Positions 377 through 47,438 of a stretch of DNA of 64,000 nt are shown here, one piece after another; within the stretch, counting starts at the first letter, position 1; each line of letters starts with the position of its first letter. Source of the DNA: the human T2T-CHM13v2.0 reference genome, Homo sapiens; assembly GCF_009914755.1 (NCBI RefSeq), contig NC_060935.1; one strand, given 5' to 3'. Under the pieces are notes generated by a model. That model did no database searches. It was not told where the DNA came from and saw only the letters and a list, made by a program, of their open reading frames with translations. The position numbers and the translations under genes are program-made.

Positions 377-1121
377 TTAATTCTTCCTAAAAGGGAAATT
401 ACACTACTCTTTGAGACATCAAGCCTTACTGTTCTCATGGTTTTGTACCATGCCTGATGATCAAAAGTGTTTATATTGCTTGATAAAAAATAATGTCTGT
501 TTCAACTTTACTATCATTTGAACGTTACAATATCTCTAATTAGTTGAGAATGTTTTTCTTTCTTCTGAAATAAAGAGGCAATGCTTCATGTAACTTTTAG
601 AGTCCTTTAGAATGAAAACATGAATAATCACTGTTCATATTTCATATTATCATTTAAAGACTAAGGATGGTAAAGGCAAGAGTAATAGTAGGCAAGTGAC
701 CATTATGGTAATACGTAAGAGAAATGGTTGATCTACAATTGAAACATGGGCCTTAAGTTTGTTTTATATATTTAAAAACATATACCAAGTATATATCTGT
801 AAAAATAGCTTCATTAGTTAAATTTCTTGAAAATTTATTTTAATGGGATGAATCTGTGAAGTGAGGAGAGGATAGTAAAAACTATTACATGACGGAGAAA
901 GGAAAAATATTGGATTCTTTCCAACCACCATCTGCTGTCAGTTTCAGCTTCATCTATAAAACATATTTTAACATAAAATAAAGGCAATGCAAAGGTTACT
1001 ATAACTTTTCTGTTTGCAAGCAGCATTCAGAGACTATTAAGATGGGGGGGTACTCAAAATTTAGTGATCTAAATATTTTCAAGAAAAATAATGGAGTGAT
1101 TTTACAGAAATCCAGAAGTAA

Positions 1122-1270
1122 AAACCTCTGTATGCCTCAGTTATTCATTCATAAATTGGGGTGATAAATATAACCAACTTCTACTATTACTCTGAGTCTT
1201 AAATAAGTTAATGTAAGTAGAGGGCTTATAAGGACAGGTGTCATAATAAAGTCACTAAGCACTTTATTAT
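1122..1270 (+). mobile_element. MIR fragment
   Basis: AACCTCTGTATGCCTCAGTT...AAATTGGGG core similarity. Confidence 0.6.
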
Positions 1271-1721
1271 CATATGTTGTACTACTAAACTCTCCTTGGA
1301 ATTAGTCCTTCTCTATAGTGTTGTTCCACTTTGGTGAACACAAATATAAAGTTTACTCTTTAGAGTAAAGCTGAAACCATTGTAATTTTTCTAGTAATTC
1401 AGAGTATGCTCTCTGTTTCACTTTTAAACTTGAACTTAATGCTACGTCTCCTAAGTAGAATATATATATATATAATATACCTAAGCAATAAATGCCACCT
1501 TCAAATCATGTAAACAATTTTGTAATCTTGCATATATCTATCACAGGACCATACTTACTGTCTACCAAACTCCTTATGTGTTCCTGTATAGCTGTACTTT
1601 GTAATGTAAACCATTCCCAAGCAACATCTTGCCTTTCTAAACTCTCTAATTCTAGCACTTAAACTCTTTATCTAATTCTAGATTACAGTTATATACTGTA
1701 TTATATAATATAGTACCCAGT

Positions 1722-2106
1722 TGGTGTGGTTTAGAATCGTGTCCCTGACAGAATCTCATGTCGAATTGTAATCCCCAGTGTTGGAGGAGGGGCCTGGTGG
1801 GAGATGATTGGACCATGGGGGAAGATTTCCCCCTTTCTGTTCTTGTGATAGTGAATGAGTTCTCACAAGATCTGATTGTTTAAAAATGTGTAGCACCTTC
1901 CCCCACTCTGTTTTCCTCCTACTCTAGCCATGTCAGACTTGCCAGCTTCCCTTTCATCTTCCACCATGATTTTAAGTTTCCTGGGGCCTCCCCAGCCATG
2001 CCTCCTGTACAGCCTGTGGAACCAGGAGCTAATTAACCCTCTTTTCTTTATAGATTACCCAGTCTTAGGTAGTTATTTATGGCCATGCCAAGAACAGACT
2101 AATACA
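1722..2106 (+). mobile_element. MST (MSTA/B-like) MaLR solo LTR
   Basis: TGGTGTGGTTTAG...GACTAATACA ends; 5-bp TSD CCAGT/CCACT. Confidence 0.92.
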
Positions 2107-2859
2107 CCACTTATAGTTGCAGCCTAAGGAAAAAGAAGAAAAGTAATAAAGTAATGGAATGAAAGTACTACTAGACAACCCATAGCAATTCAAGTTTGAA
2201 CAAAAAGATATATGAAATACACAATTTATAGGAGACATTTTCATATAAGTTATGTGTCATTAGACTTAAGCAATATTCTGTTCACTCACTCAATATTAAC
2301 TCTCCATCTTAACAAAATATTGGGATTTTTTTAGAGTTTAAGAAAATTCGAATCTACTTTATATTAAATAAGAATTATCAGTTTGTTTTCAGTTTTTTTC
2401 TCAACCTTATTAAATCTTAGGTGACTCACATTAATTCCCCAAGTATGCATTTCTGTATTGACAAAATGAATGTGTTGTACAAATTTAACTCTTTCTAGGT
2501 TTCGACTTCTCTGAGTTTATATAATGTAAAAAGTCATTATTTTAGGGGCTCAAGGTAAACAATGAGAACAGAGGGCATTCACCTGTATACATAATCTTGG
2601 CACATCTACTCTTAGCTACTTAATTCAGTATCAAGTGAAGAACACTAACATAATTGTTTTCACTTTCTAGGCATAGTTATTTTTACTTTTACTTTTCAGT
2701 TTTCCATTTTATGGAATTAGACATTTAATAATTATTTTCATTAATAAATACATTTTTCTAAGGGTAACTATATTGTTAAAAAATCTATATTTACTCAATT
2801 ATGCTAATATGAGAAGTTTATTTTGGACTCAATCTATCACATAACTCAGTAAGTAGAGA

Positions 2860-3005
2860 TGATATGGTGGACTAAGCCTGGGCTTTGGAATATGACTGAT
2901 AAGTGCTTGAATCTTGACCCTTCCACTTTCTTAATGTCATCTTAGGTAAGGATTTTACAACTCAAGACCTACTTTTTCCTGAAGCTAAAATGGAAATAAT
3001 AGCTA
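2860..3005 (+). mobile_element. MIR fragment
   Basis: GGGCTTTGGA...TTGAATCTTGAC...AAAATGGAAATAAT. Confidence 0.55.
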
Positions 3006-4776
3006 GTCATTGGTTTGGGATTATAAGTTATAACATATTTAATTCTGACTCATGATAGCTCTTCAAAATATACTGACCTGTTTCCACTTACAATTATTTC
3101 ATAGTATAATAGGTTTATTATACATAACCATTCATTTCTTCTATGCCATTCTTAGCAAGCCATTTTCAAATACATAATCAAATAAGGCTATTCATATGTA
3201 CTACGATACTCCTCCTATTAAATATATTATTTAAGAAATACAATTTTACACAGAGCTAAATTTCTTTTAACAAATATTTGCCTAATAGGACTCATATGCC
3301 TTTCTCTGGGGAAGGGCATTATTTTATTCATTATTTACCTTTGTATTCCTGCACAAAAATTTGGTCATACTAGTCAGGGAAGCTATTATTTGATGATATA
3401 GAGGATTGCATAATATACCATTGTTGTAATAAATTGAAAGCCAATAGATATTACAAAAGATGTCTGTTATTTTTTCAGAGCAGAGGAAAAAAACCTTTCT
3501 CTCAGCTGCTATCTGTACCGTCATGCAGATTTTAGTTTTAAATTGATTGAGCCACAAATGAGCACTTCCCTAAGCTTTCAGAATTGCAGATTATTAGATC
3601 TGAGGTTCAGAAATAATTGCTTTCAGAGAGAGAATTTGTCATCTATTCAATTCCATATTTTTATGACAGCCTGTTTACTTTGGTTTAGAATTAAGGTAGC
3701 CTTATTACCTCCACTATCACTGTCTGTCACTTAACATGTCTGGCTAGGGATAAGAACTACCAACAATGCAATAAAAAAGAAGAATGCCTAAACCTCAGAG
3801 TTTATTGGGCTATTCACTTTTCACAGATACAGAGGACAAGAATAAATTTTGAAAATATGTGCAAAGAATGGAGGACTGAGAATATAACAAGGAAAACAGA
3901 GGTTTCATTAGATTTTCAGAGACCACAGTCTACATGAAAAGAACTTCAGAAAAAAAATGATGTTTTTTCTGTGTGGAAAAACGTTCAGAAGAAAATGATA
4001 GTTTGCACAGTGATAGCAGGGAGCGGCAATGACCAGGTTGAAACCTTGGGTATAATTTCTCTGCTAATGTTTCATGGGGATGAAGAAACATTGCTCTGGC
4101 TACAAGGCTGAGAGCCATCCCTTAAAAATTTTGGATCAGTAAAGAAAAAAAGAAAGAATTCTGGATCACTGATGTCAAAATTCAACTTCATGAGCTCTTC
4201 TCCAGCAGTATTGCTCTACTCATTATTCCCTGAATATGCCAAGATTTCCTGCCTCGTATATTCACGCTCAGCAACAAAATTGCATCAACTTACCAGAAGC
4301 TGTTAAGAAATCTATCTATGCTACCCCAAACCCTAAAAGGATGAATTGTATGTCAAAAAAAGCAATGCGCTTATTTATACTGGCTAATCAGCTTGTGTGA
4401 TGAGTTAGAAAGCAGTGTCACCTGAATAAGCACACATACTATTTTTGTGCAGGAAAGCCTACTTAGAAACCAAGGAGTAATATAAACACGTATTACAAGT
4501 AAGAGAGCTGGATGTATAAAAAGGTAGAGTTATGGTTGATATTAATCGAGTAAAATGGAATTATCACCACCTGATATACCCATGTCACTAATGATGTACC
4601 TTATTAAGTGCCTTAAAATTAGGTGACCACGCATCCCAGGTGTGCCAAGGAAAGTCCTGCTTTATATCTACCATCCCGGGACAACTTTAACTCAAATCTT
4701 TCCCACTTTACCCACTTTAGATTGTTAAAATATTCACCCTTATATGGTTTTGACCACAATGTGATAAATTATGACC

Positions 4777-5065
4777 TTTTTTTTTTTGACAGAGTCTCAC
4801 TCTGTCACCCAGGCTGAAGTACAGTGGTGCTATCTGGGCTCACTGCAACCTCTGCCTACTGGGTTCAAGCGACTCTCCTGCTTCAGTCTCTTTAGGAGCT
4901 TGGGCTACAGGCTTACCACCACACCTGGCTAATTTTTGTATTTTTGGTAGAGACAGGGTTTCACCACGTTGGCCAGGCTGGTCTCAAACTCCTGACCTCA
5001 GGTGATCCGCCCGCCTCGGCCTCCGAAAGTGCTGGGATTACAGGTGTGAGACACTGTGCCCGGCC
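4777..5065 (-). mobile_element. AluS SINE
   Basis: poly(T)...CCCGGCC; ATTATGAC flanks both sides (TSD). Confidence 0.97.
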
Positions 5066-5899
5066 TATTATGACTCTTTATATTTCTTTTTGCTTGCATG
5101 AGACAATGCAAGCAAATCTCTAAACATTTTTTCATGCCTGGTTACTATTAAGTGATTAAGTTTCTCTGCATTGGTAGTGTTCTCATTCCTTTATTTTCCA
5201 TGAAGACACAGACTATGATGGGACTCAGGAAGACATTAAATTTGAATTTACGACATATATATGACATACATTATTATCTGCTTGAGGTTTACCCCTTCTA
5301 TCCTCTAACTTCTCTAGGTATTTTATACTTGAATAATGCTTGATTAGTTAGATTGTGAACATCCACCTGTTAACCACCTGTTTTTCCAGGCAATATGCTC
5401 CTTTTGTGTATATTCTTCTCATTTATATTCTTAAGCCCACTTTCTCAGTGCTAGTTACTGCATCATTTTTATATGTGAAAATATTTTTCTCCCTAAGTAG
5501 TTACCTTATATCACCAAGTATCCGGTGGACAGCTCTGATTATATGCCTTGCAGATACCTAAACTCAACGTGTTGAAACCAAATTTTTTATTTTGGGTTTT
5601 CTCCAATAATTTTGAAAAAGTAAATAGTTGCACAAGCTGTTAGACTATTTAGTCTTCCCTGAACATACTTTGACAAATAAAACTCTGAGAAACGGGGAAA
5701 GTAAGGCTAAAATTAAATCAGATAGACACAATATATTTGGAAAAAACAGTCAGTTAGGGAGGCATGGAAGAAGAGATACTCTTCAGTGAGAGCCAGCATG
5801 TGGTGTTAAAGTCGGTAGGGGGGAATTATGAGCTTCAAAGCTCAATAAAAGCAGAATAAAAAAAGAAATCCATCATAGAAATAAAGACAAGACATACTG

Positions 5900-6440
5900 A
5901 AATATGTAATTTAAGAAACATTTTTGAAAATTAAAAGAAGAAAGTTGTAAGTGTGCACCACAATGCACAAAAGAGTAAGAAAGAACAGTCAACAAGATTA
6001 GGCACATTAAATTATCAGACATGTAAGATAAAGAAACATCTTTTCTAAAACTGCTCAGAATAATAATATTATTTTATATAAAATGGTTATTTCCCATGCA
6101 GATCTTACAACAATGACTATGTATGCACCAATTTAAATAAATCAATATTTATTAGTTAAAAATAAAGTATAGCAATACAATAAAACAGAGAGAAATGTCT
6201 TGTCATATAATTTAATTCATCTCCTCAGGTCATAATTGATAAAATAGACCAAAAATTAATAAGGATATATGAGACCATATATCCTAATGATGTCCTATAA
6301 ATATAAACTGTATCACTTTTTAAGTACTCCTTTAGTATTCATAAAATGTGATGCCATATTCTAAGTACCAAATAAAATTTTAATATATATAAAAACAAAA
6401 TTAATACCTGGAAATATTTATTAATCAGAGTCTAGTAAAA
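5900..6440 (+). mobile_element. Very old L1 (L1M/ME) ORF2 endonuclease-region fragment
   Basis: A-rich; ATGTATGCACCAA and AAAATAGACCAAAAATTAATAAGGATATA resemble the L1 EN region. Confidence 0.45.
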
Positions 6441-8168
6441 CTGGAGTAGAATTGTTCATAGTAGTCTCTAATGATCTCTTTGTATTTTTGTGGTATCAGT
6501 TGTACTTTTTTCTTTTTAATCTCTGATTTTTTTGTTTTGGTTTTCTCTCTCTTTTTCTTAGTCTAGGTGAAGGTTTATTGATTTTGTTTATCTTTTATAA
6601 AACCTTTTTTGATCTTTTGTTTTTTTCAGTCTTAATTTTGTTTATTTCTGTTCTGAACTTTATTATTTAGTTTCTGTATTAATTCTGCATTTTTTTCTCA
6701 CTTTTTTTGTAGTTCCTTTGGGTGCATCATTAGGTTATTTGAATTTTTTTATGGTTTTTATGTAGGTGTTTATTGTAATAAGGCCTCTTAGCACTGCTTT
6801 TGCAGTATCCCATAGGTTCTAATGTTTCTATTTGTTTTAAGAGAAACATTTTTAATTTTCTTTTATATTTTTTCATTGACTCCTTGGTTATTCAGAAACA
6901 TGTTTAATTTTAATGTATTTTTACAGTTTCCAAAGTTCCTGTTGTTGTTGAGTATAGTTTTATTTTGCTACGATCAGGAAAGGTACTTGATATAATTTTG
7001 ACTCTTAAATTTGTTGAGACTTGTTTTGTGGCCTAACAAATGGTGTATCCTGGACAGTGTTCTCTGTGCAGATGAGAAGAATGCATATTCTGGAGAAGCT
7101 GGATACAATGTTCGATAACTGTCTATTAGGACCATTTGGTCCAGAATATAGTTTAACTTCAATGTTTCTTTGTTCATTTTCTGTCTGAATGATCTCTCCA
7201 TTGACAAAAGTGGGGTGCTGAATTCCTTTAATATATTGTACTGCAGTTTATCTCTCCCTTTAGATCTATTAATATTTGCTTTATGTATTTGGGTGCTACA
7301 GTGTTGGGTACATATGTATATATGTTTATGTTTACATACACATATATATTTAGTAGTATTATATCCTTTTGCTGAGTTGACCCTTTTATCATTATGTAAT
7401 AACCTTTGATATCTCATTTTACAGTTGTTGATATAAAGTCTATTTGGTCTTATATGAGTGTAGCTACTCCTGCTTTTTTTTTTGTTTCCATTTGCATGGC
7501 ACATATTTTTTCATGCCTTCACTTTTGGCCTATGTGTGTCTTTACAGGTAAAGTGAGTTTCCATAGATGGCATATAGTAGTCACATATTTTTAATCTATT
7601 CAGCCAGTCTATGTCTTTTAATTAGAGAATTTAGTCCACTTACATCCAATGTTGCTATTGATAGTTAAGGACATACTACTGCCTTTTGTTATTTGCTTTC
7701 TGTTTTGTTTTTTTTTTTAACTCCTCTCTTTCTTCCTTTCTTATAGCTTTTCTTTGTAATTATTTGATTTTCTCTTGGAGTATGTTTTAATTTGTTGCTT
7801 TTAATTTGTAATGTCTCTATTATAGGTTTTTACTTTTTACCATGAGGCTTACAAAAAACATCCTATAGTTATAACTAGTTATTTAAAACTGATACCAATT
7901 CAACCTTGATCACAAAAAAACTATAAAACAGGTGCACACATTAATTCCTTTCTAGTCCTACATTTTGAATTTCTGACGTCACAACTTACATTTTTTATAT
8001 TTCCTGTCCCTTAAAAGTTTTTTGCAGTGATAATTTTAATATTTTGCCTTGTATTCTTCTTAAGAAGGATAAAAGTGGCTTATGCACCACCATTACAATA
8101 TTAGCATAATGATCACATTAGTGGTTTTTTCCTTCAGTTTGAAGAACTCTCTTTAACATTTCTTGTAG

Positions 8169-8758
<590 letters not shown>

Positions 8759-10460
8759 ACCAAGAATATTTTAACTCACTCATATCTGATTTGCTTCCTT
8801 TCTCTCACTGCTTTTAGGATCATCTCTTTGTCATTGAAATTTGAGAGGTTGATTATAATATGTCTTGAGATATTTTTATTTTGCTTTAATCTGATTGGTA
8901 AACTTTGATCTTCTTGCACCTGAATACTTATATATTTCTCCAGGCTTAGAAACCTCTCTATTATTATTTCTTTTAATATGTTTTCTATCCTTTTGTCTTT
9001 CTCAGTTTCCTCATTAACTCCATTAGCCCAAATATTAGAACTTTTGATGTCCTGTAGATCATGTAACCTTTATTTCTTTTCGTGTTTTGTTATTTTCTCT
9101 CTTCTGTGTATTTTCCAATCATCTGTCTTTGAGCTCATGCTTCTTTCTTCTGTCCAATCAATTCTACTGTTGATGCTCTCTACTGCATTTGTAAATTTCA
9201 TTCATGGTACTTTTCAGCTCCAAAATTGTTTGCTTTTTTGAAATTATTTCAATCTTTTTGTTAAATTTCTCTGATACATTTCTACACCGATTTCTTGTGT
9301 TTTCTTGAAGTTGTTGAGCTTCTTTAAAATAGCTATTTTGAATTCTTTGTCTCAGGGATGACAGATTTTCCTTGCTTTAGCATTGGTCTGTGTCACATTA
9401 TTTTGTATATTTGTTGAGTTCACATTCCCTGACAGTTCTTGATGCTTGTGATGACATCTGTACATTGATGAATTAGGTACCTAATGTGGTCTCAGTTGGT
9501 TTTTATTAATTTATTTTTTATTTCAATAGGTCTTTGGGGAACAGATGGTGTTTGGCTACATGAATAAGTTCTTTAATGGTGATTTCTGAGATTTTGGTGT
9601 GCCCATCACCCAAGAAGTGTACACTGCACCCATTGTGTAGTCTTTTATCACTCACCCCTTCCCACCCTTTTTCCCAAGTACCCAGAGTCCATTGTATCAT
9701 TCTTATGCCTTTGTGTCCTCATAGCTTAGCTCCCAATTATGAATGAGAACATATGATGTTTGGTTTTCCATTGCTAAGTTACTTCACTCAGAATAATAGT
9801 CTCCAGTTCCATCCAGGTTGTTGTGAATGCCATTATTTCATTCCTTTTTATGGCTGAATAGTATACCATGGTATATATATAGCATATATTCTTTATCCAC
9901 TCATTTATTGATGGGCATTTGGGCTAGTTCTATATTTTTGAAATTGCAAATTGTGCTGCTATAAACATGCATGTGCAAATATATTTTTTGTATAATGACT
10001 TCTTTTCCTCTCAGTAGATACCCAGCAGTGGGATTGCTGGATCAAATGGTAGATCTATTTGTAGTTCCTTAAGGAATCTCCACACTGTTTTCCATGGGAG
10101 TACTAGTTTACATTTCCACCAACAGTGTAAAAGTGTTCCCTTTCACTACATCCAGGCCAATATCTATTTTTTTTTTTATTTTTTGATTATGGTCATACTT
10201 GCAGGTCTAAGATGGTTTTGCATTATGATTTTGATTTGCATTTCCCTGATAATTCGTCGTGATGTTGAGTATTTTTCCTTTTGTTTGTTGGCCATTTGTA
10301 TATCTTCTTTTGAGAATTGTCTATTCGTGTCCTTAGCCCATTTTTCGATGGGATTCTTTGGTGTTTTCTCACTGATTTGTGAGTTCTTTGTAGATTCTGG
10401 ATATTAGTCCTTTCTCAGATGTATAGATTGTAAAGATTTCCTCCCACTCTGTGGGTTTTC

Positions 10461-10556
10461 TGTTAACTCTGCCATTTCTTTTGCTGTGCAGAAGCTTTTT
10501 AGTTTAATTGTTAACTCTGCTATTTCTTTTGCTGTTCAGAAGCTTTTTAGTTTAAC
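10461..10556. repeat. 48-bp tandem duplication inside L1 ORF2
   Basis: TGTTAACTCTGCCATTTC...AGTTTAAT x2 with 3 mismatches. Confidence 0.95.
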
Positions 10557-13500
10557 TAAGTCCCACCTATTTATCTTTGTTTTTCTTGCATTTGCTTTTG
10601 AGTTCTTGGTCATAAAGTTGTCGTCTAAGCCAACTTCCAGAAGAATTTTCCAATGTTACCTTCTAGAATTTTTATGGTTTCAGGTCTTGTATGTAGTCCT
10701 TGATCCATCTTGAGTTGATTTTGTATAAGGTGAGGGACGAGGATCCAATTTCATTTTCTACGTGTGGCTTGCCAATTATCCTAGCACCATTTGTTCAACA
10801 GGGTGTCCTTTCCCAACTTTGTGTTTCTGTCTTCTTTGTCGAAGATCAGTGGGCTGTAAATATTTGGCTTTATATCTGGGTTCTCTATTCTGTTCCATTG
10901 GTATACATGCTTATTTTTATGCCAGTACCATGATATTTTGGTGACTTTGGCCTTATAGCATAGTTTGAAGTCAGTTAATGTAATGCCTCCAGATTTCTTT
11001 ATTTTGCTTTGCTATGTGGGCCCAATTTTGGTTCCATATGAACTTTGGAATTGTTTTTTCTGATTCTGTAAAGAATGACAGTGGTATTTTGATGAGAATT
11101 GTCTTGAATTTGTAGATTGTTTTTGGCAGTATGATCATTTTCACAATATTGATTCTACCCATCCACAAGTATGGGATGTGTTTCCATTTGTTTGTGTCAT
11201 CTATGATTTCTTTCAGCAGTGTTTCATAGTTTTCCTTGTAGAAGTCTTTCACCTTCTTGGTTAGGTATATTTCTAAGTATTCTTTTTTTGCAGCTATTGT
11301 AAAAGGGGTTGAGTTGTTGATTTGATTCTCAGCTTGGTCACTGTTTGTATATAGCAGAGCTATTAATTTGCATACATTAATTTTATATCCAGAAACTTTG
11401 CTGAATTTATTTGCCAGTTCTAGGAGCTTTATGGAGGAGTGTTTAGGGTTTTCTAGGTATACAATCATATCATCAACAAACAGCAACAGTTTAACTTCCT
11501 CTTTACTGATTTGAATGCTCTTTATTTCTTTCTCTTTTCTGATTGCTCTGGCTAGGACTTCCAGTACTATGTTGAGTAGAAGTAGTGAAAGTGGGCATCC
11601 TTGCCTTGTTCCAATTATCCGGGAGAATGCTTTCAACTTTTCCCCATTCAGTATAATGTTGGATGTGGGTTTGTCATAGATGGATTTTATTACCTTAAGG
11701 TATGTCCTTTATATGCCAATTTTTCTGCAGGTTTTAATCATAAAGGGATGCTGGATTTTGCCAAATGCTTTTTCTGCAACTATTGAGATACTCATGTGAT
11801 TTTTGTCTTTAATTCTGCTTATGTGGTGTATCACGTTTATTGACTTGTGGATATTAAACCATCCCTGCATTCCTGGTATGAAACCCATTTGATCATGGTG
11901 GATTACTTTTGGATATGCTGTTGGGTTCTGTTAGCTAGTATTTTGTTGAGGATTTTTTGATCTATGTTCATCAGGGATATTGGTCTGTAGTTTACTTTTT
12001 TTTGTTATGTCCTTTCCTGGTTTGGTATTTGGGTGATACTGCCTTCATACAATGATTTAAGAAGGATTCCCTCTTTTTCTATCTTGTGAAATAATGTCAA
12101 CAGGATTGGTACCCATTCTTCTTTGAATGTTTGACACAATTCAGCTATAAATTTGTCTGGTTCTGGACTTTCTTTTTATGTTGGCATTTTTTTAAAATTA
12201 CCATTTCAATCTCACTGCTTTTTATTTGTCTGTTCAGAGTTTCTATATCTTCCTGGTTTAATCTAGGAAGGTTGTTTATTTCCAGGAATTTATCCATATC
12301 CTCTAGGTTTTCTGGTTTATGCATGTAAAGGTGCTTACAGGAGCCTTGAATAATCTTTTCTAATTCTGTGGTATCAGTAGTATTATCTCCTGTTTCATTT
12401 CTAATTGAGCTTATTTGCTTCTTCTCTCTTCTTGTCTTGGTTAATCTCATGAATGGTCTCTCAATTTATCTTTTCAAAGAACCAGATTTATGTTTCATTT
12501 ATATTTTGTATTGTTTTGTTGTTGTTGTTTCAATTTCATTTAGTTCTGCTCTGATCTTTATTATTTCTTTTCTTTTACTGGGTTTGGGTTTGGATTGCTC
12601 CTGTTTCTACAGTTTCATGAGGTGTGAAACACAATAGATTGTCTATTGTCTCTTTCAGTTTTTTTTTTTATGTAGGCATTTAATGCTATAAACTTTCCTC
12701 TTAGTACTACTTTTTCTGTATCCCAGAAGTTTTGATAGGCAGTGTCACTATTGTCATTAAGTTCAAAGAATTTTCAAATTTCCATCTTGATTTCATTCTT
12801 GACCTAACAATCATTCAGGAGCAGGTTATTTAATTTCCATGTATTTGCATCATTTTGAGCATCCCTTTTGGAGTTGATTTCCAATTTTATTCCACTGTGG
12901 TCTGAGAGAGTACTTGATATAGGTTTGATTTTCTTAAATTTACTGAGACTTGTTTTGTGGCCTATCATATGGTCTATCTTGGAGAATGTTCAATGTGCTG
13001 ATGAATAGAAAGTATATTCTGTAGTTGTTGGGTAGAATGTTATGTAAATATCTAGTAAGTATATTTGTTGTAGGGTATAGTTTAAGTCCATTGTTTCTTT
13101 GTTGACTTTCTGTTTTGATGACCTGTCTAGTGCTGTCAGTGGAGTATTGAAGTCCCCCACTATTATTCTGTTGCCATCTATACCTTTTTTTAGGTCTAGT
13201 AGCAATTGTTTTATAAATTTGGGAGTTCTGGTGTTAGGTGCATATATATTTAGGATTGTGATATTTTCCTGTTGGACTAGTCCTTTCATCATTATATAAT
13301 GTCCCTGTTCTTTTTAACTGCTGTTGCTTTAAAGTTTGTTTTGTCTGATATAAGAATAGCTACTCCTGCTTCTTTTTGGTGTCCATTTGCATGGAATACC
13401 TTTTTCCATCCCTTTACCTGAAGTTTATATGGGTCCTTATAAGTAAGGTGAGTCTCCTGAAGATGGCAGAAACTTGGTTGGTAAACTCTTATCCCATCTG

Positions 13501-14208
13501 CCATTCTATATATTTTAAGCAGAGAATTTAGGCCATTTACATTCTGCATTAGTATTGAGAAGTGAGATACTATTCTATTCATCATGCTATTTGTTGCCTG
13601 AATATCTTGTTTTGTTTTGTTTGTTTCATTGTGTTATTCTTATATAGGTCCTGTGAAACTTATGGTTTAAGGAGGTCCTATCTTGGTGTATTTTGAGGAT
13701 TTGCTTCAAGATTTAGAGCTCCTTTTAGCAGTTCTTGTAGTGCTGGCTTGGCAGTGGTTCATTGTCTCAGCATTTGTTTGTCTGGAAGAAAAATTGTATC
13801 TTTCTTTCATTTGTGAATCTTAGTTTAGCTGGATACAAAATTCTTGACTGATAATTGTTTTGTTTAAAGAGGCTAAAAATAGGACCCAAGTCCCTTCCAG
13901 CTTGTAGGATTTCTGCTTTTTCTGTGATAGGTTTTAGGTTTTTCCTTTGTACATTACCTGATGCTTTTGCCTCATGGCTCTTAGGATTCTTTCCTTTGTC
14001 TTGAATTTTGATAACTTGATGACTGTATGACTAGGTGATAACCTTTTTGCAATAATTTCCCAGGTATTTTTTAAGCCTTCTGTATTTGGATGATTAGATC
14101 TCTAGTAAGGCTGGGGAAGTTTTCTTCAATTATTCTCTCAAATATGTTTTCCAAACATTTTGATGTATCCAAACACCAATTATTCCTAGGTTTGGATGTT
14201 TAATATAG

Positions 14209-14838
<630 letters not shown>

Positions 14839-16045
14839 TGAATTCTTGCTCTGGAAATTCGAAGAATTCATCTTGGTTTGGATCCATTTGCTGGTGAGCT
14901 GTTGTGATTTTTTGAAGGTGTTAAAGAAGCTTGTTTTATTACCAGAATTCTTTATCTGATTCCATCACATTTGGGTGGATTATGTCAGAGAGAAGATCTG
15001 GGACTCAAGGGATGCTGCTCAGATTATCTTTTGTCCCACAGAGTGCTCCCTTGATGTGGTGCCCTCCCCCTTCCCCTAGGTATGGGGCTTCCTGAAAGCT
15101 GAACTGCAATGATTGTTTTTGCTCTTTTGGGTCCAGCCATCCATAGGAGCTACCAGGCTCTGGGCTGGTACTGGGGAGTGTCTGCAAAGTGTTCTGTGAT
15201 GTGATCCATCTTCATGTCTTTCAGCCATGGATACCAGCACCTACTCCAGTGGAGGCAGCAGGGGAGTGAAGTGGACTCTATGAGGGTCGTGGTTTGTATT
15301 TTTGTTTAGTGCACTTGTTTTGTGTTGGTTGGCCTCCAGCCAGGAAGTGGCACTTTCAAGAGCACATCAGCTGTGATTTCATAGGAAGGATGCAAACTTG
15401 CCCTATGATTGCCTGGTTAAGTATTGAGAGGCCTCAGGTGGTGGGTAGGGCCACAGAGCCTCCAAGAGATTCTGATCTTTGTCTTTGGCAACCAGGGTGG
15501 GTAGAGAAAGACCACCAGGTGGGGGCAGGGATAGGAGTGCCTGAGCTCAGACTTCCCTTGGGTGGGGATCCCTGCAGCTGCTCTAGGGGATGGAGTGTGG
15601 TTTCTAGGCCAATGGAGTTATGTTCCCAGGATGATTATGGCTGCCTCTGCTGAGTCATAAGGTCACCAGGGAAGTGTGGGAAAGCCCTCAGCCTCATCCC
15701 ACTCCCACACAGCCTGCAGTCTTTAAGGCCAATCTCATTCCCGTTGTTACCCTGGAACAGCACCAAGTCTATTTCCAGGTAGCCGGTGGCCAGGGCTGAG
15801 AAATTGCCCCAGACCACCAGTCTCTCCACTGAGAAAGTAAGCAGACACAGTTTTTCAGCATTTCGGGCAGCCTGCAGTGGAGATCCAGTTCCTTCAAAGG
15901 GTCTGTGGATTCTTTCAGCTTTCCTGGTATGTTCCTGCAGCAGTTTTGGGAGCAAAAGTTCACAATGTTACTCTCCACATCCTGCTCTGTCTGAGTGGGA
16001 GCTGCAAGCTAGTCTTGCCTCCTATCTGTTATCTTAATCTTACCT

Positions 16046-17221: not shown

Positions 17222-17289
17222 TGAGTTAATTTCTTACATGGATGACTTGTCCCCTTCAGTGATTGGTGAGACACATTATATATAACTAA

Positions 17290-32094: not shown

Positions 32095-32109
32095 TATATT
32101 GACTTCTAA

Positions 32110-32418
<309 letters not shown>

Positions 32419-35044
32419 CATTCTTTCCTTTCATAAACATTTCCTTTCCTCATCCTTGTAATATGATGACATCACAATTGTTATTTAAACCCTTATTTTT
32501 GGTGAATGCATTTTTGAGGACTACATAATTATTGTTCACAACCATACCATATAATGAACAATAAACATGATTTCATTTTTATACAATATTTTGTTTCTCC
32601 TAGTATTGATTTTTGTCATAGTTGTTTTGTTCGTTTTGTTTGCTTCCTTTTCTACATTTTCTATCAATGTCAGGAGACACTTTTCAATATGCGCTTATGT
32701 CACTGCCTCTGAAAAAATAAATGTAATTACTACTGACTCTCTCATCATTGCCAGAATGTTATGCACATTTTTTCTGCTTGTATGTATCTCTGGCTTACAA
32801 GTCTGGACTGGGTGCATCTGACTGGTTGAATCAAAGTTGTGTTTATATATTTAAAGTGCAAGTGGAGCTTGTAAGAAAAATATTCAGCTTTACAGCTAGC
32901 ATGAGTGGGACTCTGTTTCATAGGCCTAAAAATTTCCAAAATTATGGAAGAAGCTTTAATTTATGAGTGACCAAAACAAATTATCAATGGTAAATTCATT
33001 CTGATACTGTCTTCATGTTAGGAAAGTTCTTGGCCTTGATAACCAACTGCATTCATTCGCATTGCATGCATAGCAGCAGCATGATAAATGGAAATAATTT
33101 GGGAAATTAGATTTAAATCTCACCTCTAATGTTTATAAAGATTGATCTAGACTATTGCACATAATGAAAGACAGCTATTTCTAGTGAAAGTCAAAGTCTG
33201 GCTTTAATTTTCACTTACCAAGTTAACAAAGTTTTATAAATTATAAGTATTTTACAAACCTCAGAAAAATGTTAACAGCTCAAAAAAGTAGACCAGATAT
33301 CTTCTAAGAATATCTTGAAATTGTAAATTTTCAGCTTCATCTTCTATGTCAGTCATATATAGAAGGGGCAAATATATGGGGGAAATGAAGAGACATGAAT
33401 TAAAAGATTTATTTTTTGGTATCCAAAACTAAATGAATCTAATATAAGTTCCAAGTGAAACTATATTAGATTTCAACATGTGCGCTCATCCATAATGTAC
33501 CCACCTGTATTTGTTAAGACATCAGTGAATCTTAGATTTCTCAAAGAATCCCATATGTAAGTGAATAAATGAGACAGTTAAATGGTAGCAACCTTAATTT
33601 AGAAAGAGAAACTCCAGGAACCAACAAAATGTTTTGTTCTCTGAGGAACGAGAACATTTATTTTTAATGTATACTTCATAAATTTCAATTGTTTCAAACT
33701 TAATCATTTTCATGTGTGAAGGTGTTTTATTTTCTCATGATGCAAGTCGAAATAATTGCCTGCAAATCCAAAGGGAACATTTTAGCTCCATGTTTACCTG
33801 TCCATTAATTTTTTAAAATACATAATTTTAAGAAAATAGTATTGGTAGAAAATGATTCAAAGCTTAGAGAGGTGTTGCTTTACTTCAAGTTTCCTATTAG
33901 TTATTTTGAAAACCTGGATGTCAAATTAGAATGTTTCATTCATGTTTTGAATACAAGACTGAAGCAATTAAATATTGGGCAGAATCATATTTAGGAAGCT
34001 AATAAAAAAAGTAATTGTACACATACATACAACACTTTTCATTTGAAAAAATGTGTCATACTATTTTTAAAATATACATTAAGTATAAATGTCTTCAGGG
34101 AGAACAATCTCTTAATTGCTAACAAAAACTGCTGAAGTAGACTAATGCTTTCAGAGTGCATTCATTCATTCATCTAAGAAATATTTTGAATATCAATTAA
34201 ATGCTGTGTAAAATGCATGCACACTACTCTGCTTAATCTACTGTAATTCAATATTATACACAAACACATATACATTATAAATCACAAGTTTGCCTATCTT
34301 AGGTAAAATTTTGAATGGTTCCTGCTTTTTGCAAAAGAGAAATACTAATTATTTTTTTCTGAGAAGGAAAATGAGGTCTATAATCATCCATCACAGGTCT
34401 GGTGTACATTTATATTCAAATTGGGAAAAAGTTCTATGAACAGATAATATTTCATATACCTAGGATACAAGTTCAGACTGAAAAAAGTAGCATTCTGTGA
34501 TGATAATATGTTAAATTTGAAAGTGATGCAATTTGTATTGACAGCATCTGTTCCTTGTCCTGGCCCAGAGGGTGTCGAACTAGGTATAAATTACAAAACG
34601 CAAATTTTATTGCTTTCTTTCAAAGCTAAATTTTCACATTATACCTCAAAACATGAATACATTCTATAGATTTACACTTTCTTCCCCATCATCTCTTCAT
34701 TAATCCTCTTTGTACATGAAAAATATGCTTGACTCTGTAAGTGTATGTATTTTAAATTTCCATTTAGCAAAATTATGGAACAGAGGTGTATTTGTAATTC
34801 TGACAACAATGATCACAATGATAATAGTGATAAAGAAAATGATATTGATGATAATTATTATAATGTAATTTCTGACAGCAGTTCCGAATTCTTACTTGTG
34901 TCTACATTATTTATTGGAGAGAAGCTATAGAAAACCATTAGGATTATCAGGCAATTGTAGAGAATTGGTAAATCAGAGAAGTTACTATCATAAAGAAACT
35001 TCGTATCCATTCTTTTCATTGTCATCATTAATTTTTATACCCAA

Positions 35045-36170: not shown

Positions 36171-37179
36171 TACTTGGAAAGGAGTACACTTACTCTATAA
36201 CAAGTTATAAATTAAAAAATTATATAACTTTATGCCTGGGATTTTTCATGGCCAGCTGCTAAGTTTAATAAGAAAGTTTGAGAGATAAAGTAACTTTTAT
36301 AATTACTGACAATTGATTTAAAACAACCAAAACTTACATTAATTCCAAATATGTTGTTTTCATGATATATTGACATATGTTTATTAGATATTCTATCCAA
36401 ACTAGCTAAAATGTTTGCGCTCTTTGATCATTTGTGTCATATTTTACTTTCGATGTTTCTTCACATAGTTTCTTATGGCCCGCCACTTCTTGCCTCTCCA
36501 TCCACTGCGCAAAAAGGTGATGTCTTAACACTCTCAATGTCAATGCAATTTGTGTAGGTTCTACTTGCACACTTCCAATATGTGATAACTTATTCAAAAA
36601 ACAGACTAATTTTTTCTAACACACTGCAAATTTTGTGGGCGTAGCAGTAATAATTTGATGTTTTCCTTTCACTGATTCTGACTTGATGTCTTGATGTCAT
36701 AAGTAGTTAAAGATAATGCTTTAAAAATTGTTAATATTCTTTACCAATACATTACTTTATATTATTGTATATTTCTGAAAGCATTACCTCCTACATAAAA
36801 CATTGCCTTATTGAACAATATCAAAAAAGAAGTGACCAGTTTTACCTAGTACAAAAGTTTACCAGGCTAAGTTTGGAAATCCTAGAGAGGAGAGAGGAAA
36901 TGAATTCGGGACATATATTCCTCCTATTTAGGAGAAATAGAATTTTTAGTTTTAATAAAACCATTTGGGGTCAGAAAGGTTTGTCAAGGTAGGCATATAT
37001 ATTTTTAACCATTTTGTAATTGTAAGAGAATCATAATACAGCCATAAAATTCAGTTATTCTAAAAGCCAACATAGTTTTTTTTATAAATGTGAATCAAGC
37101 AATATTGTTCTACTTAAAACTCTTCAATAAATTATCATTACACATAGATTAAAATACACATTTGTTACTACACATAATA

Positions 37180-40622: not shown

Positions 40623-41978
40623 CCTTCCATCTTCTTTAATTAATTAATGACAGAGGTAAATTAGAAGAAGTGCTTTGTTAATTACAAGACTCCCAATGAT
40701 TTTACAGTAGCTTATTTACCTTGGGCAAACTATAAGGAAAACAGAAAACTTAGATGTACATTTTATGAAAATATAAATATAAATGCCTTAATTATCAGAC
40801 TAAGGATATATTTCATTCACAACTATGAGATTTTGAGTATTTATAATGTTGAAAATAAATTTGCTAAAAGCCTTGGTTCTCAATAACTAGCTCTACAACA
40901 CTGAAAAAGGTAAGATTTTTGTATGTCTTTTTTCTTATACCTCAAAAAACTTCAGTTTTCCACTTTTTATCTCACTGGCAGTGGTGATAATAAAATGTGA
41001 ATTTCTTGAAATTGTGCAAAACACTATACAAGTAAGGTAAAAGCAATGCTGTTGCTCTTATTTTATTGTAATTATGTTCCCGTGTCACTCTCTAGATATT
41101 AAATGCCCAGGATGAAGGCAGTAAGCTAAAATTGTGGTATTTGAAGTTTTTGCTAAGACAAATTTCATAAAAGAATTAGAGAAAAAACTTTTTTGAATGA
41201 TTTATAAAGCCCAGGTAATAAGACATATTTTTCTAAACAAAGATTGTGTTTTCTTTATATGAAAATATCAACAGTGTCTAGCACAGTACTAGGCATGTAG
41301 TGCTAAGTACTATAAGTAAAGTTTTGCTCCCTGGCACATCCAAAATCTAACTTTAAAATGATTCCTTGTGTTATATATTTGTTGATATGTGTTAATTGCC
41401 TCTGATATATTAATAAAGTACTTACCTAGGAGCTTTGAACGCTTCCTGTTGCTACATTTTGATTTGCCACTCATTTGCCAATCTCTCTTGGTTTGCTTTT
41501 ATTTTTGAAATGCAGGTTTTTCTTAGTTTTTCTAAGTATAGGTAGTTATAAAAGAGCATTGTGGGTTTCTATTTTTCATATGTGAGTTAACACCATTACA
41601 TGCTGCCATGAAAGTGGGTGAGCCACCATTAATCATAGAATCATGCTGCTGGAAGGAAACTCCAAAGGTCAGATAGTTAATCCTCTTGACTCCACGTAGG
41701 CTGCCTTGAAATTAACCTAGACAAATAGGTGTCTGTCTAAGCACTTAAAGGTTGAATGGCACCATGAATGTATAAACAATCATAGCCAAGTGGAGTATGA
41801 GCTGATCATTTAGATAATTCAAGCAGCATATCTTCACATTGGTTCAATCCCCTAAATATATCAATATTTCCATTTGAACAGTGGTGTAGTTTATCAGGAG
41901 AAGGTGACTGGACCATCAGAAAAATTATCTTAGAATATTTTGTTGAGAATGAAAGAAGAAACTACATATAAAGTGCCT

Positions 41979-44617: not shown

Positions 44618-46075
44618 TGCCAATATAATTCTGGACATATATTGGGTAATCAATAAGCATCAGTTGTTGTCCCCATCTTCCAGATGACATAGCATTACTC
44701 CTTTTGTACAAGGAATGTATTTATTATATAATCATTTATAAAATAAAATGAATTTTACCCTCTCAGTTTACTTATTATAGTGATTAGAATTTCATTTTTA
44801 AGTTTCTTTTTTTCAAAATAAAGGCACCATCTTCAATGACAAAAGATTTTGGGAGATCAAGTAGTATGATGATAACAAAGACAATGCTGGATTTTACAAT
44901 TGCAAAATGTTATTGATACACATCTTTTTATATGGCTTAGAACCCTCTTCCTTAGTTTGAGGACTAAAGGAGGATGAGATATAGTAGAATCATGAATAAG
45001 AACTTTTCAAGCTTAGGTGCTTAAAATAATATGGGATGTGGGGGAGAGAGATTGTTATGAGGGAGGTCTCTTTCTACTGTCTTAACTTTACGTATATGCA
45101 AGGAATTTAAATTTAACAATCTAAAACTTTATATGTGCTTCCCACTCTCTCTTTTTTCAGCCTTTGATTACTTGTTCCAGCCAATAAAGATATATGCAGT
45201 GTAGGTGAGATGAAGTCATCATCTATATTTTGTATAAGTGCAGGTAACACATGCAGATTAGATGGAATTTTAAACTAATACCATATGGTCTGATTGTTTA
45301 CTTTTTTTTTTATAAGAGGGGAAATGTTTTATTTTTCTAAGAGTTTCCTTAGAGTATAGGACAAGGAATTTCTGGATGAGTACATTCAGGCATATTGACA
45401 TCTTGATCCTTTGGTGTGAGGCTTCAGGGAATGAGTCTAAAAGGCCCTGGAAGCACCAATGGTTGGTAAACTTGAGCTGACATATTGACTGTGACAAAAG
45501 AAGCACTACGCACAGTGTTACCAGTTGTGGGAGTAACTGCTTCTGGAAGGGTGGTCTCTACTGGAAAATAACTGGGTGGTGATAGGAGGCACTTTTATCT
45601 GTATGAGTTTCAGAAGCATTTCAGAAAATATTTTCAAAGTTCTTTGTGTTGGCAATAGTGAGAAAAACGACATGAAAATGTGTTTTCAAGAATGACAGTG
45701 GAGATTCCTCTGGTCACCAAAAGCTTCACAAGGAGCGATGAAGAGAGTTGTGTATTCTTGTCTTTTACCCCAATTGCTTCACTCAGTCAGCACAATAGTG
45801 TTCATAGAGTGAACAGGAAAAGGAAGGCAGTAAAAGACATCTTAACATAGGGACAAGGGTAGTGTTAGGTGCCAATGAAAGTCCTCAGTGAATCCAATTC
45901 ATGTGCATAGATCAGAAGAGGCTTAGAAAGATTGTAACAGTGAATTATAGGTGATAGAAAAGCAAAGACTGGGAGGACATTCCTGTAGACTTAGGGTAAG
46001 ACAAAAAATGAAGCTTAGTTACATTATTAGAGGGAAAGTAAAAGTTTCATACACTAGTCTCCGTGTTTATGTAAG

Positions 46076-46499
46076 TAATATGGTTTAGATCTGTGTCCCC
46101 ACAGAAATCTCATGTTCAACTGTAATCCCCAGTGTTGGAGGTGGGACCTGGTGGGAGGTGATTGGATCATGAGGGTGGTTTCTCACGAATCGTTTAGCAC
46201 CATCCCCTTGGTGCTGTTCTCATGATAGTGAGTGAGTCTTTGGGAGATCTGGTTGTTTAAAAGTATGTAGCACCTCCTTCCTCTCTCTTGCTCCTGCTCT
46301 CACCATGTAAGATGCCTAGCTCCCCTTTTGCCTTCTGCCATGATTGTAAGTTTCCTGAGGCCTCCCCAGAAGCCAAGCAGATGCTAGAATCATGTTTCCT
46401 ATAGAGCCTGCAGAACTGTAAGCCAATTAAACCTCTGTTCTTTATTAATTACCCAGTCTCAGGTATTTCTTTATAGCAGTGTGAGAATGGACTAATACA
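46076..46499 (+). mobile_element. MSTA-like MaLR solo LTR
   Basis: TAATATGGTTTAGATCTGTGTCCCCAC...GGACTAATACA; TSD GTAAG/GTAAT. Confidence 0.94.
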
Positions 46500-47438
46500 G
46501 TAATATGTTAAACCCTACAGGGGAGGATCAACATGGGATGTGAAAGGAGTGGTGAACGGACTCCACCAGACTATTAGAAATAAAATGCACAATGATAAAA
46601 CAAAAGAAAAAAAGAAAGATGGGAAGTGATGAAAACTTGAGTCACATAAGGGCTCATGTTTTATTCAGGCAAAAAAATTATTAAGTTCTTCTTTTATGTC
46701 AAACACTTTATTGAGCAAAAAGAAGAAAGACCTTTAATTTTGAGGTAAATTATTTTTTATATTGTGAAAACAGGCACTCAAACAGTTATGATTCAATACT
46801 CAGATAAATAGATCATTTAATATTGTAAGTTATATTCATCCTCAGTTTACATCTTTATGTATATATATACACACACAAATTAATGTATTACACATTAATG
46901 TATCCAGTACTATTAAATTTTTGTTTTTTAATATGAGCAGCATGTTATAATTTCTTTCATTTTTCAATCGGTCTGCTAAATTTTTTGATAGCTCATTCAA
47001 TCCATGGAGTGTTTTCCTTTGAGATAGATTTCTTCTTGAAATTTTCCTGTACATATTGTAAATTTTCTACCCTTATAAATAACTTACCTCCACAAAGCCA
47101 ATCCTTTTAATTCATCACATATACATTTAATTCTGCTGTTCATATTACCACTTGAACTTTCCTGAAACTTTCCTTTCCACTGTCAGTTCAAGCTGCCAAC
47201 TCAAAAACACACACAGAAAGGCACAAAGGAAAGAACCAGATAAGTCATATAATAACAATATTGCCATATATATTCACCATAATCCGTAATGAGCTCATAA
47301 ATTCACCTGCAGTACTGTATTTCATATTTCCATCAACCTGTATGTTCAATTTTTTTTCCAATTTTATGTATAAGGAAATTGAGGTTTGATGAAATAAAGT
47401 AACTTGACCAATATTAAAGATTCAGTAAGTGACACATT

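What the first reader, a model, noticed from the sequence alone, without database searches (positions are those of the whole stretch)
835..47192. Candidate fossil multi-exon coiled-coil gene on the minus strand (possible unitary pseudogene)
Seen: in unique DNA between repeats, minus-strand segments have splice-site-like ends and read as E/K/L/Q-rich helical peptide. In order they are LELTVERKVSGKFKW*YEQQN*; KTLHGLNELSKNLADRLKNERNYNMLL; EKLRKTCISKIKANQERLANEWQIKM*QQEAF; LRHHLFAQWMERQEVAGHKKLCEETSKVK; EDEAENLQFQ; EAVT*AHIEKCLLTLIENVEK; NNLNEKKNKQ..GFKTE; IKSLSARIRE/LERQ..IQEHIRSLVD; NEAETDSRWWLERIQ. I noticed three AG|GTAAGT sites, each closing such a segment, and the last five junctions can be read with matching phases (1, 0, 0, 0, 1). 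Inference: an intron-containing gene inactivated long ago, possibly still spliced as a lncRNA. Caveat: A-rich DNA yields K/E/N-rich peptides by chance, and I chose the boundaries by eye.
Basis: partly seen in the sequence, partly recalled or inferred. Interest (0 to 1): 0.8.

Follow-up and report, generated by a model that had tools for sequence, protein, structure and literature searches.

The report
Chance reading frames beside a lncRNA
The supposed fossil coiled-coil gene is most likely a set of short chance reading frames in purine-rich patches of a human gene desert, a few of which coincide with exons of an already annotated non-coding RNA.

Summary
The peptides and the three minus-strand AG|GTAAGT sites are in the sequence. 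They do not stand out from chance.

- **Size and breaks:** the segments are 10-32 codons long, carry four in-frame stops and need one frameshift. The path from segment S1 to its "closing" donor crosses four stops.
- **Background pool:** 179 minus-strand and 110 plus-strand stop-free runs in the same region are at least as E/K/L/Q-rich.
- **Splice-like sites:** 59 minus and 43 plus AG...GT intervals with an open frame exist by chance. Three AGGTAAGT sites against 1.3 expected gives P=0.15.
- **Composition:** the segments are purine-rich (67% against 51% background), which explains the E/K/N/Q-rich translations.
- **Homology:** none found in Pfam, PDB sequences, two large protein libraries or the human genome itself.
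- **Published gene losses:** no relic lies near this place.

The real feature is the annotated minus-strand lncRNA LOC101928563. The spliced RNA has stops at random density in all frames. Cross-species conservation could not be tested here.

The parts
47127..47192 (-). Reader segment S1 (LELTVERKVSGKFKW*YEQQN*). A chance frame that does not stay open to the donor-like site at 47088.
   Evidence: The frame from 47192 to 47088 holds 4 stops.
47082..47089 (-). AG|GTAAGT donor-like site (exon-last base 47088). It is unannotated and lies outside the lncRNA span.
   Evidence: It is one of 3 such sites on the minus strand against 1.3 expected.
46845..47066 (-). 74-codon stop-free run holding reader segment S2 (46935-47015). 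It is the most heptad-like of the segments.
   Evidence: No Pfam hit, no PDB-sequence hit, no paralogue and no real hit among 1.84 billion representatives. Crude heptad score is in the top 19 of 722 runs.
41425..41568 (-). Reader segment S3 (41437-41532). It has one in-frame TAG at 41452-41454 and ends at the AG|GTAAGT site with exon-last base 41426.
   Evidence: No hit. DNA is single copy.
36409..36615 (-). 69-codon stop-free run holding reader segment S4 (36442-36528).
   Evidence: No Pfam hit, no PDB-sequence hit, no paralogue. The only library hit is a 63-aa near-identical frame (60 of 63 residues) from an unnamed contig. No longer protein matched.
33260..34892 (-). Annotated first exon of lncRNA LOC101928563, with donor GAG|GTTTGT at 33260. 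Reader segment S5 (33315-33344) lies inside it.
   Evidence: Hub annotation.
32647..32709 (-). Reader segment S6, with one in-frame stop. It lies in an annotated intron of the lncRNA.
28400..28508 (-). Annotated alternative internal lncRNA exon. Canonical AG/GT ends, 60% purine.
   Evidence: Hub annotation.
27397..27490 (-). Annotated internal lncRNA exon. Canonical AG/GT ends, 66% purine.
   Evidence: Hub annotation.
24180..24317 (-). Annotated internal lncRNA exon. Canonical AG/GT ends, 67% purine.
   Evidence: Hub annotation.
18206..18346 (-). Annotated internal lncRNA exon with the consensus donor GAG|GTAAGT at 18206. Reader segment S7 (18206-18289) is its 3' part.
   Evidence: Hub annotation.
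1509..1671 (-). Reader segments S8a (1642-1671) and S8b (1560-1589) in two different frames, so a frameshift is needed. A donor-like ACA|GTAAGT has its exon-last base at 1559. Not annotated as an exon.
910..954 (-). Reader segment S9. The acceptor TTTTATAG| at 953/954 is the annotated acceptor of the last lncRNA exon (942-953).
   Evidence: hub annotation.
10784..16039 (-). Old L1 element in minus orientation: ORF2, ORF1 and 5' region, interrupted by an inserted repeat. It supplies many of the K/E-rich minus-strand frames and underlies annotated lncRNA 3' exon material (14835-14837 and the end of 15959-17285).
   Evidence: Pfam RVT_1, Exo_endo_phos, Transposase_22 and Tnp_22_dsRBD hits. Stretch 14900-16039 is repeated at 78-82% identity with 9205 candidates.

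Best explanation
There is no fossil protein-coding gene here. The window lies in an AT-rich (34% G+C) human gene desert.

Purine-rich DNA (A 43%, G 23% in the segments) is made mostly of codons such as GAA, GAG, AAA, AAG, AGA, CAA and AAT. Any open stretch in it therefore translates as E/K/R/Q/N-rich, helix-looking peptide. Runs of 10-30 codons without a stop are routine at a stop frequency of about 7% per codon.

The real biological object under part of the finding is the annotated, spliced, minus-strand long non-coding RNA LOC101928563 (942..34898). Its internal exons are themselves purine-rich, as exons with purine-rich splicing enhancers commonly are. That last point is established knowledge, not tested here. 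This is why a search for purine-rich, splice-site-flanked segments picked up three of its exons, one of its donors (18206) and one of its acceptors (953).

Shown: the sequence facts, the chance pools, the absence of homologues and the random stop density in the spliced RNA. Inferred: that the six segments outside annotated exons (S1-S4, S6, S8) are neither expressed nor conserved.
For: - **Composition.** Window G+C is 0.341. The four annotated internal exons are 60-67% purine.
- **Chance pool of rich frames.** In 835-47192 there are 179 minus and 110 plus stop-free runs with at least 45% E/K/L/Q in 20 residues.
- **Chance pool of exon-like intervals.** There are 59 minus and 43 plus YYNYAG...GTRAG intervals of 30-300 nt with an open frame.
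- **AGGTAAGT count.** Three observed against 1.31 expected, P=0.145.
- **Heptad score (my own crude measure).** Of the four segments long enough to score, S2 is in the top 3%, S3 16%, S4 36% and S7 54% of 722 minus-strand runs.
- **Breaks.** There are four in-frame stops in about 200 codons, one frameshift, and four stops between S1 and its donor.
- **Pfam.** 0 of 11 segment frames have a family at E<0.1. Among 122 minus-strand and 97 plus-strand long frames, only L1 and Tigger-type transposon remnants are recognised, none at a reader segment.
- **Other homology searches.** PDB sequences: 0 of 3 below E=0.66. Human genome six-frame search with the S2 and S4 frames: self only, next best E=0.4-0.6. 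S2 against 1.84 billion representatives: its own copy plus a spurious tandem-repeat translation. S4 and S3 against longer proteins: none.
- **Annotated lncRNA.** Every internal exon end inspected has AG or GT. The spliced model has 45-48 stops per 673 codons in each frame, and the longest ATG frame is 40 codons.
- **Literature.** The partial- and complete-loss sheets of Wen et al. 2023 (PMC10195156), which hold its 155 human gene-loss events, have no chr11 entry nearer than 48.1 Mb. Passages of Chapman et al. 2026 (bioRxiv 10.64898/2026.03.27.714728) list LRRC4C among 'lonely genes' that sit in gene deserts and argue that this architecture is ancient in vertebrates, though for LRRC4C's own paralogue set they could not date the desert. 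That LRRC4C is the gene flanking this window is recalled, not shown by a call.
Against: - **Residual minus-strand excess.** Outside the L1 block (15000-47192) the minus strand has 39 E/K/L/Q-rich runs of at least 25 residues. The plus strand has 21, and Markov order 1-5 simulations give 19-22 (sd 4-5).
- **How far that excess is explained.** By my reading of the list, about 11 of the 39 fall in a GA microsatellite, in poly-A tails of masked repeats or in the L1 5' region. About 28 remain, against 19 on the plus strand after dropping its two microsatellite rows. A modest excess is unexplained.
- **Strong donor-like sites.** AGGTAAGT sites are all on the minus strand (3 to 0). Two of them (47088, 41426) lie upstream of the annotated gene and directly follow purine-rich sequence.
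- **S2's heptad pattern.** It is in the top 3% of minus-strand runs.
- **What was not tested.** Conservation and RNA-seq could not be examined. The large protein libraries may under-represent vertebrate proteomes, and the two 'longer' searches are described by the tool itself as weak evidence.
- **Old repeats.** Repeats more than about 30% diverged would escape the genome search.
Confidence: 0.9

Rival explanations
1. One reading: a multi-exon coiled-coil protein gene was inactivated long ago (a unitary pseudogene). Its eroded exons survive as S1-S9, and some were reused by the lncRNA.
For: - The segments are collinear on one strand.
- Three overlap lncRNA exons, and two junctions are annotated splice sites.
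- S2 has a good heptad pattern.
- There is a modest minus-strand excess of E/K/L/Q-rich frames.
- lncRNAs born from gene-loss relics are documented: 33 of 88 partial losses in Wen et al. 2023 (passages).
Against: - No homologue was found in any search.
- There are four stops and a frameshift in about 200 codons made of pieces of 32 codons or fewer.
- The boundaries were chosen freely from pools of dozens to hundreds of equivalents.
- Six of the nine segments are outside annotated exons.
- The spliced lncRNA shows random stop density.
- No such relic appears in the mouse-anchored loss lists.
- From recall only: the interval between RAG2/IFTAP and LRRC4C holds no protein-coding gene in mouse or chicken.
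Confidence: 0.03
2. Some of the unannotated segments (S1, S3, S8b), each followed by a GTAAGT donor-like site, are non-coding exons of longer or alternative LOC101928563 isoforms or of a neighbouring unannotated transcript. They would be real exons but never coding.
For: - The donor-like sites are consensus-grade: GAG|GTAAGT at 47088, TAG|GTAAGT at 41426 and ACA|GTAAGT at 1559.
- The segments are as purine-rich as the annotated internal exons.
- The gene has 4 predicted transcripts with varying exons (hub annotation).
Against: - Sites 47088 and 41426 lie 6.5-12 kb upstream of the annotated start at 34898.
- GTAAGT occurs 23 times on the minus strand and 15 times on the plus strand of the window, so most copies are not used.
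- No transcript evidence was available.
Confidence: 0.12
3. The segments are eroded coding remnants of very old transposable elements, for example the coiled-coil part of an ancient LINE ORF1, rather than of a host gene.
For: - The window carries L1 ORF1 and ORF2 remnants on the same strand at 8198-14101.
- Sense-strand L1 is A-rich and supplies many K/E-rich frames.
Against: - All six DNA stretches searched around the segments are single copy, while a control repeat gave 4043 candidates at 77-81% identity.
- The S2 and S4 frames find only themselves in a six-frame search of the genome.
- No Pfam transposon family hits any segment frame.
Confidence: 0.04

Closest known systems
LOC101928563, a RefSeq-predicted lncRNA (XR_007082046.1 and 3 other models)
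   Same: Same strand and overlapping span (942..34898). S5, S7 and S9 overlap its exons. It has canonical AG/GT at the internal exon ends and no long ORF.
   Different: It omits four annotated internal exons (28400-28508, 27397-27490, 24180-24317, 14835-14837). It also uses a different acceptor for the 18206 exon. No paper in the library names this gene (0 papers).
lncRNAs derived from gene-loss relics, or unitary pseudogenes (Wen et al. 2023, PMC10195156; Zhang et al. 2010, PMC2864566)
   Same: The concept is the same: an intron-containing gene dies in place and its remains are transcribed as a lncRNA.
   Different: Those cases are defined by an alignable functional orthologue in another species and conserved synteny. 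No orthologue or homologue was found here. No chr11 entry in the Wen et al. partial- and complete-loss sheets lies nearer than 48.1 Mb. For Zhang et al. I saw only passages of the main text, which do not mention chromosome 11. Its supplementary list was closed, so that list was not checked.
Chance open frames in purine-rich or A-rich DNA
   Same: The frames are short (stop-to-stop runs of 74 codons or fewer). Their E/K/N/Q/R-rich composition follows from 67% purine content. Equivalent frames are abundant on both strands and in simulated sequence.
   Different: Three of the segments coincide with real non-coding exons, so the set is not purely random DNA.

Membership tests
Unitary pseudogene / gene-loss relic | Detectable homology to a functional protein-coding orthologue in another species | tested here: not met
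   No homologue for segment frames in Pfam, PDB sequences, 1.84 billion representatives (S2) or the 5.8-billion library (S4 and S3). Vertebrate coverage of the large libraries is unknown, so a targeted vertebrate search remains to be done.
Unitary pseudogene / gene-loss relic | A collinear reading frame across exons, broken only by a few disabling mutations | tested here: not met
   The pieces are 10-32 codons long, with 4 in-frame stops and 1 frameshift in about 200 codons. S1 has 4 stops before its donor. The boundaries of S2, S4, S5 and S6 lack a GT.
Unitary pseudogene / gene-loss relic | A gene present at the syntenic position in other vertebrates | not testable with these tools
   No vertebrate genome other than the window's own is held. 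The published mouse-anchored loss sheets have no entry near chr11:39 Mb. My recollection that the RAG2-LRRC4C interval is gene-free in other vertebrates comes from no call.
Unitary pseudogene / gene-loss relic | No functional paralogue in the same genome | tested here: met
   The S2 and S4 frames hit only themselves in the six-frame genome search. This is trivially met by random sequence too.
Coiled-coil protein | Heptad periodicity of hydrophobic core positions sustained over several heptads in most segments | tested here: not met
   A crude heptad score of my own was applied to the four segments of 21 residues or more. S2 is in the top 3%, but S3 is at 16%, S4 at 36% and S7 at 54% of 722 background runs. 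No standard coiled-coil predictor was available.
Spliced long non-coding RNA | Canonical splice sites at exon ends and no long conserved ORF in the spliced product | tested here: met
   All internal annotated exon ends show AG or GT. The spliced model has 45-48 stops per 673 codons per frame, and the longest ATG frame is 40 codons. Expression itself rests on the RefSeq prediction and was not tested.
L1 ORF1p-derived sequence | Match to L1 ORF1 profiles, or multi-copy status in the genome | tested here: not met
   No Transposase_22 or Tnp_22 hit in segment frames. The segments are single copy, with a working positive control.

The most novel reading that the evidence does not exclude
Several of the segments would be the last traces of a protein-coding gene that sat in the LRRC4C-side gene desert in an early vertebrate or early mammal. 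It would have died before the rodent-primate split, so it would be invisible to mouse-anchored loss screens. Its splice sites and purine-rich exon cores would then have been recycled into the present lncRNA and into still unannotated upstream exons.
Probability: 0.02. Interest if true: 0.5.

Novelty: not a real feature. Interest (0 to 1): 0.06.

Why it matters
If it had been true, it would have added an old gene death to a desert that one preprint counts among those housing 'lonely genes', an architecture it argues is ancient in vertebrates, and it would have given a lncRNA a protein-coding ancestry.

As it stands, the value is methodological. Purine-rich patches in AT-rich DNA imitate helical E/K-rich exons. 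Reading such DNA by eye picks out real non-coding exons and chance frames alike. The consensus donor at 18206 and the acceptor at 953 show that splice sites of a real lncRNA can be recognised from sequence alone. The coding interpretation adds nothing to the existing annotation.

Tried and rejected
- **Literature by gene name:** 'LOC101928563' gave 0 papers. 'unitary pseudogene' plus '11p12' gave 0 papers.
- **Rfam on the whole window:** 0 matches at gathering thresholds.
- **P0003** (885 aa, E=1.5e-11 to the S2 frame): rejected as a homologue. It is a translation of a tandem repeat, and the score sums 10 copies of one 19-residue stretch at 58% identity.
- **P0001** (63 aa, 60 of 63 residues identical to the S4 frame) and **P0002** (identical to the S2 frame): near-identical frames called on unnamed contigs. 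They say only that the same DNA, or that of a very close relative, was sequenced. They say nothing about coding.
- **TE-derived lncRNA start:** in the search of 33260-35400, only 35250-35400 next to a masked repeat is multi-copy. Only 40 of 3456 candidates were scored, so the start region is unresolved.
- **Internal lncRNA exons within repeats:** in 24000-28600, only 26367-27267 is multi-copy and no exon overlaps it (40 of 1334 candidates scored).
- **Phrase search for chr11 coordinates in the supplement:** found nothing because of the colon. The sheets were read directly instead.
- **Structure prediction and ESM Atlas:** not used. Short helical peptides fold as helices regardless, and nearest-cluster lists carry no significance.


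Full report
**Setting.** The window is human T2T-CHM13 chr11:38998001-39062000 (hub note; confirmed as G000:C11). It has 34.1% G+C and contains no N. The hub annotation shows one gene, the predicted minus-strand lncRNA LOC101928563 (942..34898), and no other gene within 100 kb.

**Is the observation there?** Mostly yes.
One search found nine of the nine it could search exactly (it skipped the two strings shorter than 6 residues). GFKTE and LERQ are visible in the open frames printed.
- The twelfth string (NEAETD...) reads DEAETD... in the genome. It becomes N only by joining donor 1559 to acceptor 953 as a split codon.
- AGGTAAGT occurs three times on the minus strand (exon-last bases 47088, 41426, 18206) and never on the plus strand.
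- The DNA around the segments is single-copy in the human genome at the sensitivity of the genome search. A Tigger-type (DNA transposon) control fragment from the same window returned 4043 candidates at 77-81% identity, so mid-age repeats would have been seen.

**Is it more than chance?** No, on every measure I could compute.
- *Length.* The stop-free runs holding the segments are 9-74 codons. From the base composition, a stop is expected at about 7.5% of minus-strand codons. That figure is my arithmetic. Runs of 10-30 codons are therefore routine: the window has 589 minus-strand and 598 plus-strand runs of 30 codons or more.
S8a and S8b lie in different frames. S1 meets four stops before its 'closing' donor at 47088.
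- *Composition.*
  - Outside the L1 block, using 25-residue windows, the four reader frames that qualify score 0.48. Unchosen frames reach 0.60-0.68, for example at 43246-43374 and 16043-16333.
- *Splice-like ends.*
  - There are 59 minus and 43 plus YYNYAG...GTRAG intervals of 30-300 nt with an open frame.
  - Three AGGTAAGT sites against a Markov-1 (dinucleotide-based) expectation of 1.31 gives P=0.145.
The 'matching phases' argument therefore rests on boundaries picked by eye.
- *Heptads.* With a crude score of my own, S2 is in the top 19 of 722 runs. S3, S4 and S7 are at 16%, 36% and 54%.

**One result runs the other way.**
- Outside the L1 block the minus strand has 39 E/K/L/Q-rich runs of 25 residues or more. 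The plus strand has 21, and Markov order 1-5 simulations give 19-22 (sd 4-5).
- By my reading of the list, about 11 of the 39 lie in a GA microsatellite (39878-40125), in poly-A tails next to masked repeats, or in the L1 5' region.
- That leaves about 28 against 19 on the plus strand after dropping its two microsatellite rows. The excess is modest and unexplained.

**Why the peptides look helical.** The segments are purine-rich: A 43% and G 23%, or 67% purine against 51% background. Only 5.6% of 81-nt windows reach 65%. Purine-rich codons encode E, K, R, Q, N, D and G, so any open stretch there reads as charged 'helical' peptide.

**Homology.**
- *Pfam.*
  - 0 of 11 segment frames have a family at E<0.1; the single E=0.17 match is to a tautomerase family, far below its cut-off.
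  - Among 122 minus-strand frames of 55 aa or more and 97 plus-strand frames of 62 aa or more, the matches to real protein families are all transposon remnants: L1 ORF1/ORF2 at 8198-14101 (minus), L1 reverse transcriptase at 55470-56144 (plus) and a Tigger-type DDE_1 domain at 59611-60293 (plus).
  - Two further weak sub-cut-off matches are noise: E=0.003 at the GA microsatellite (39907-40125) and E=0.005 at 38344-38526.
  - None of these lies at a reader segment.
- *PDB sequences.* For S2, S4 and S3 there is nothing below E=0.66.
- *Human genome, six frames.* S2 and S4 find themselves only; the next best hits are E=0.45 and 0.65.
- *S2 against 1.84 billion representatives.* The search returned an identical 70-aa frame and an 885-aa tandem-repeat translation. 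The latter's score is the sum of ten short stretches, and I reject it.
- *S4 against the 5.8-billion library.* The only hit is one 63-aa frame identical at 60 of 63 positions, from an unnamed 2.3-kb contig. It is most simply the same locus from a very close relative and says nothing about coding. No longer protein matched.
- *S3 read through its TAG as X.* No candidate.
- *Limits.* The vertebrate content of the two large libraries is unknown. The tool itself rates the 'longer' searches as weak evidence.

**What is really there.**
- The annotated lncRNA's internal exon ends all carry AG or GT.
- S5 lies in exon 1, S7 in exon 18206-18346 and S9 at exon 942-953. The other six segments are intronic or upstream of the gene.
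- The spliced model has 45-48 stops per 673 codons in each frame, and its longest ATG frame is 40 codons. That is the density expected from composition alone.
- The four internal exons are 60-67% purine. This fits the known purine richness of exonic splicing enhancers, which I cite as established knowledge and did not test.
- The 3' part of the gene runs into an old minus-strand L1.

**Literature.**
- No paper in the library names the gene.
- Wen et al. 2023 (PMC10195156) describe exactly the proposed route, lncRNAs born from gene-loss relics (passages). I read parts 1 and 2 of its supplementary file, which hold the partial-loss, complete-loss and exonerate sheets. The chr11 entries lie at 3.6-8.0, 48.1-71.9, 112.4 and 124.2-125.7 Mb, and none is near 39 Mb. 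That screen is mouse-anchored, so older losses escape it.
- Zhang et al. 2010 (PMC2864566): the main-text passages do not mention chromosome 11. The supplementary list was closed and could bear on the claim.
- Chapman et al. 2026 (bioRxiv): passages list LRRC4C among 'lonely genes' that sit in gene deserts and argue that this architecture is ancient in vertebrates, though for LRRC4C's own paralogue set they could not date the desert. That LRRC4C is the gene flanking this window is recalled, not shown by a call.

**Verdict.** The fossil coiled-coil gene is not a real feature on present evidence (confidence 0.9). The real element, a spliced lncRNA, is already annotated. Two questions remain open: cross-species conservation, and whether donors 47088, 41426 and 1559 are used by unannotated non-coding isoforms.

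Noticed in passing
window 6977-9069 and 10784-16039 (minus strand), possibly to 17073: There are two old L1 elements or fragments in minus orientation. Pfam-recognisable ORF1 (Transposase_22, Tnp_22_dsRBD), endonuclease and reverse-transcriptase remnants are present. The 5' region (14900-16039, plus 16926-17073) matches thousands of genomic copies at 78-82% identity. Annotated lncRNA 3' exon material overlaps it.
   Followed up: partly
window 55099-57124 (plus strand): A younger-looking L1 ORF2 remnant with a 332-codon open stretch (56129-57124) and RVT_1 hits at 55470-56144.
   Followed up: partly
window 59611-60293 (plus strand): A Tigger/pogo-type DNA transposon remnant (Pfam DDE_1, E=8.8e-13). 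The genome search gave 4043 candidates at 77-81% identity. I used it as the positive control.
   Followed up: yes
window 26367-27267: A mid-age interspersed repeat in two blocks (1334 candidates, 74-84% identity) lies just downstream of the lncRNA exon 27397-27490 without overlapping it. The family is not identified and the stretch is not in the hub's masked list.
   Followed up: no
window 39800-40130: A GA/TC dinucleotide microsatellite gives RERERE (minus) and LSLSLS (plus) frames in all three phases and inflates counts of 'charged helical' frames.
   Followed up: no
window 47862-48284: A purine/pyrimidine-skewed low-complexity tract reads as an R/K/G-rich 127-codon frame on the plus strand and a P/S/L-rich 114-codon frame on the minus strand.
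   Followed up: no
window 21050-21950: A TA/CA-rich degenerate simple-repeat region gives Y/I/H/T-rich open frames of 60-100 codons on both strands.
   Followed up: no
window 17286-17294 and 14835-14837: There are oddities in the predicted lncRNA models. One is a 9-nt gap between 'exons' 15959-17285 and 17295-18346. The others are a 3-nt exon (14835-14837) and a 12-nt last exon (942-953). They look like model-building artefacts rather than biology.
   Followed up: no
P0003: The representative library holds an 885-aa 'protein' that is a translated tandem repeat. Multi-stretch summing gave it E=1.5e-11 against a 74-aa random human frame. This is a caution for reading E-values in that library.
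   Followed up: yes
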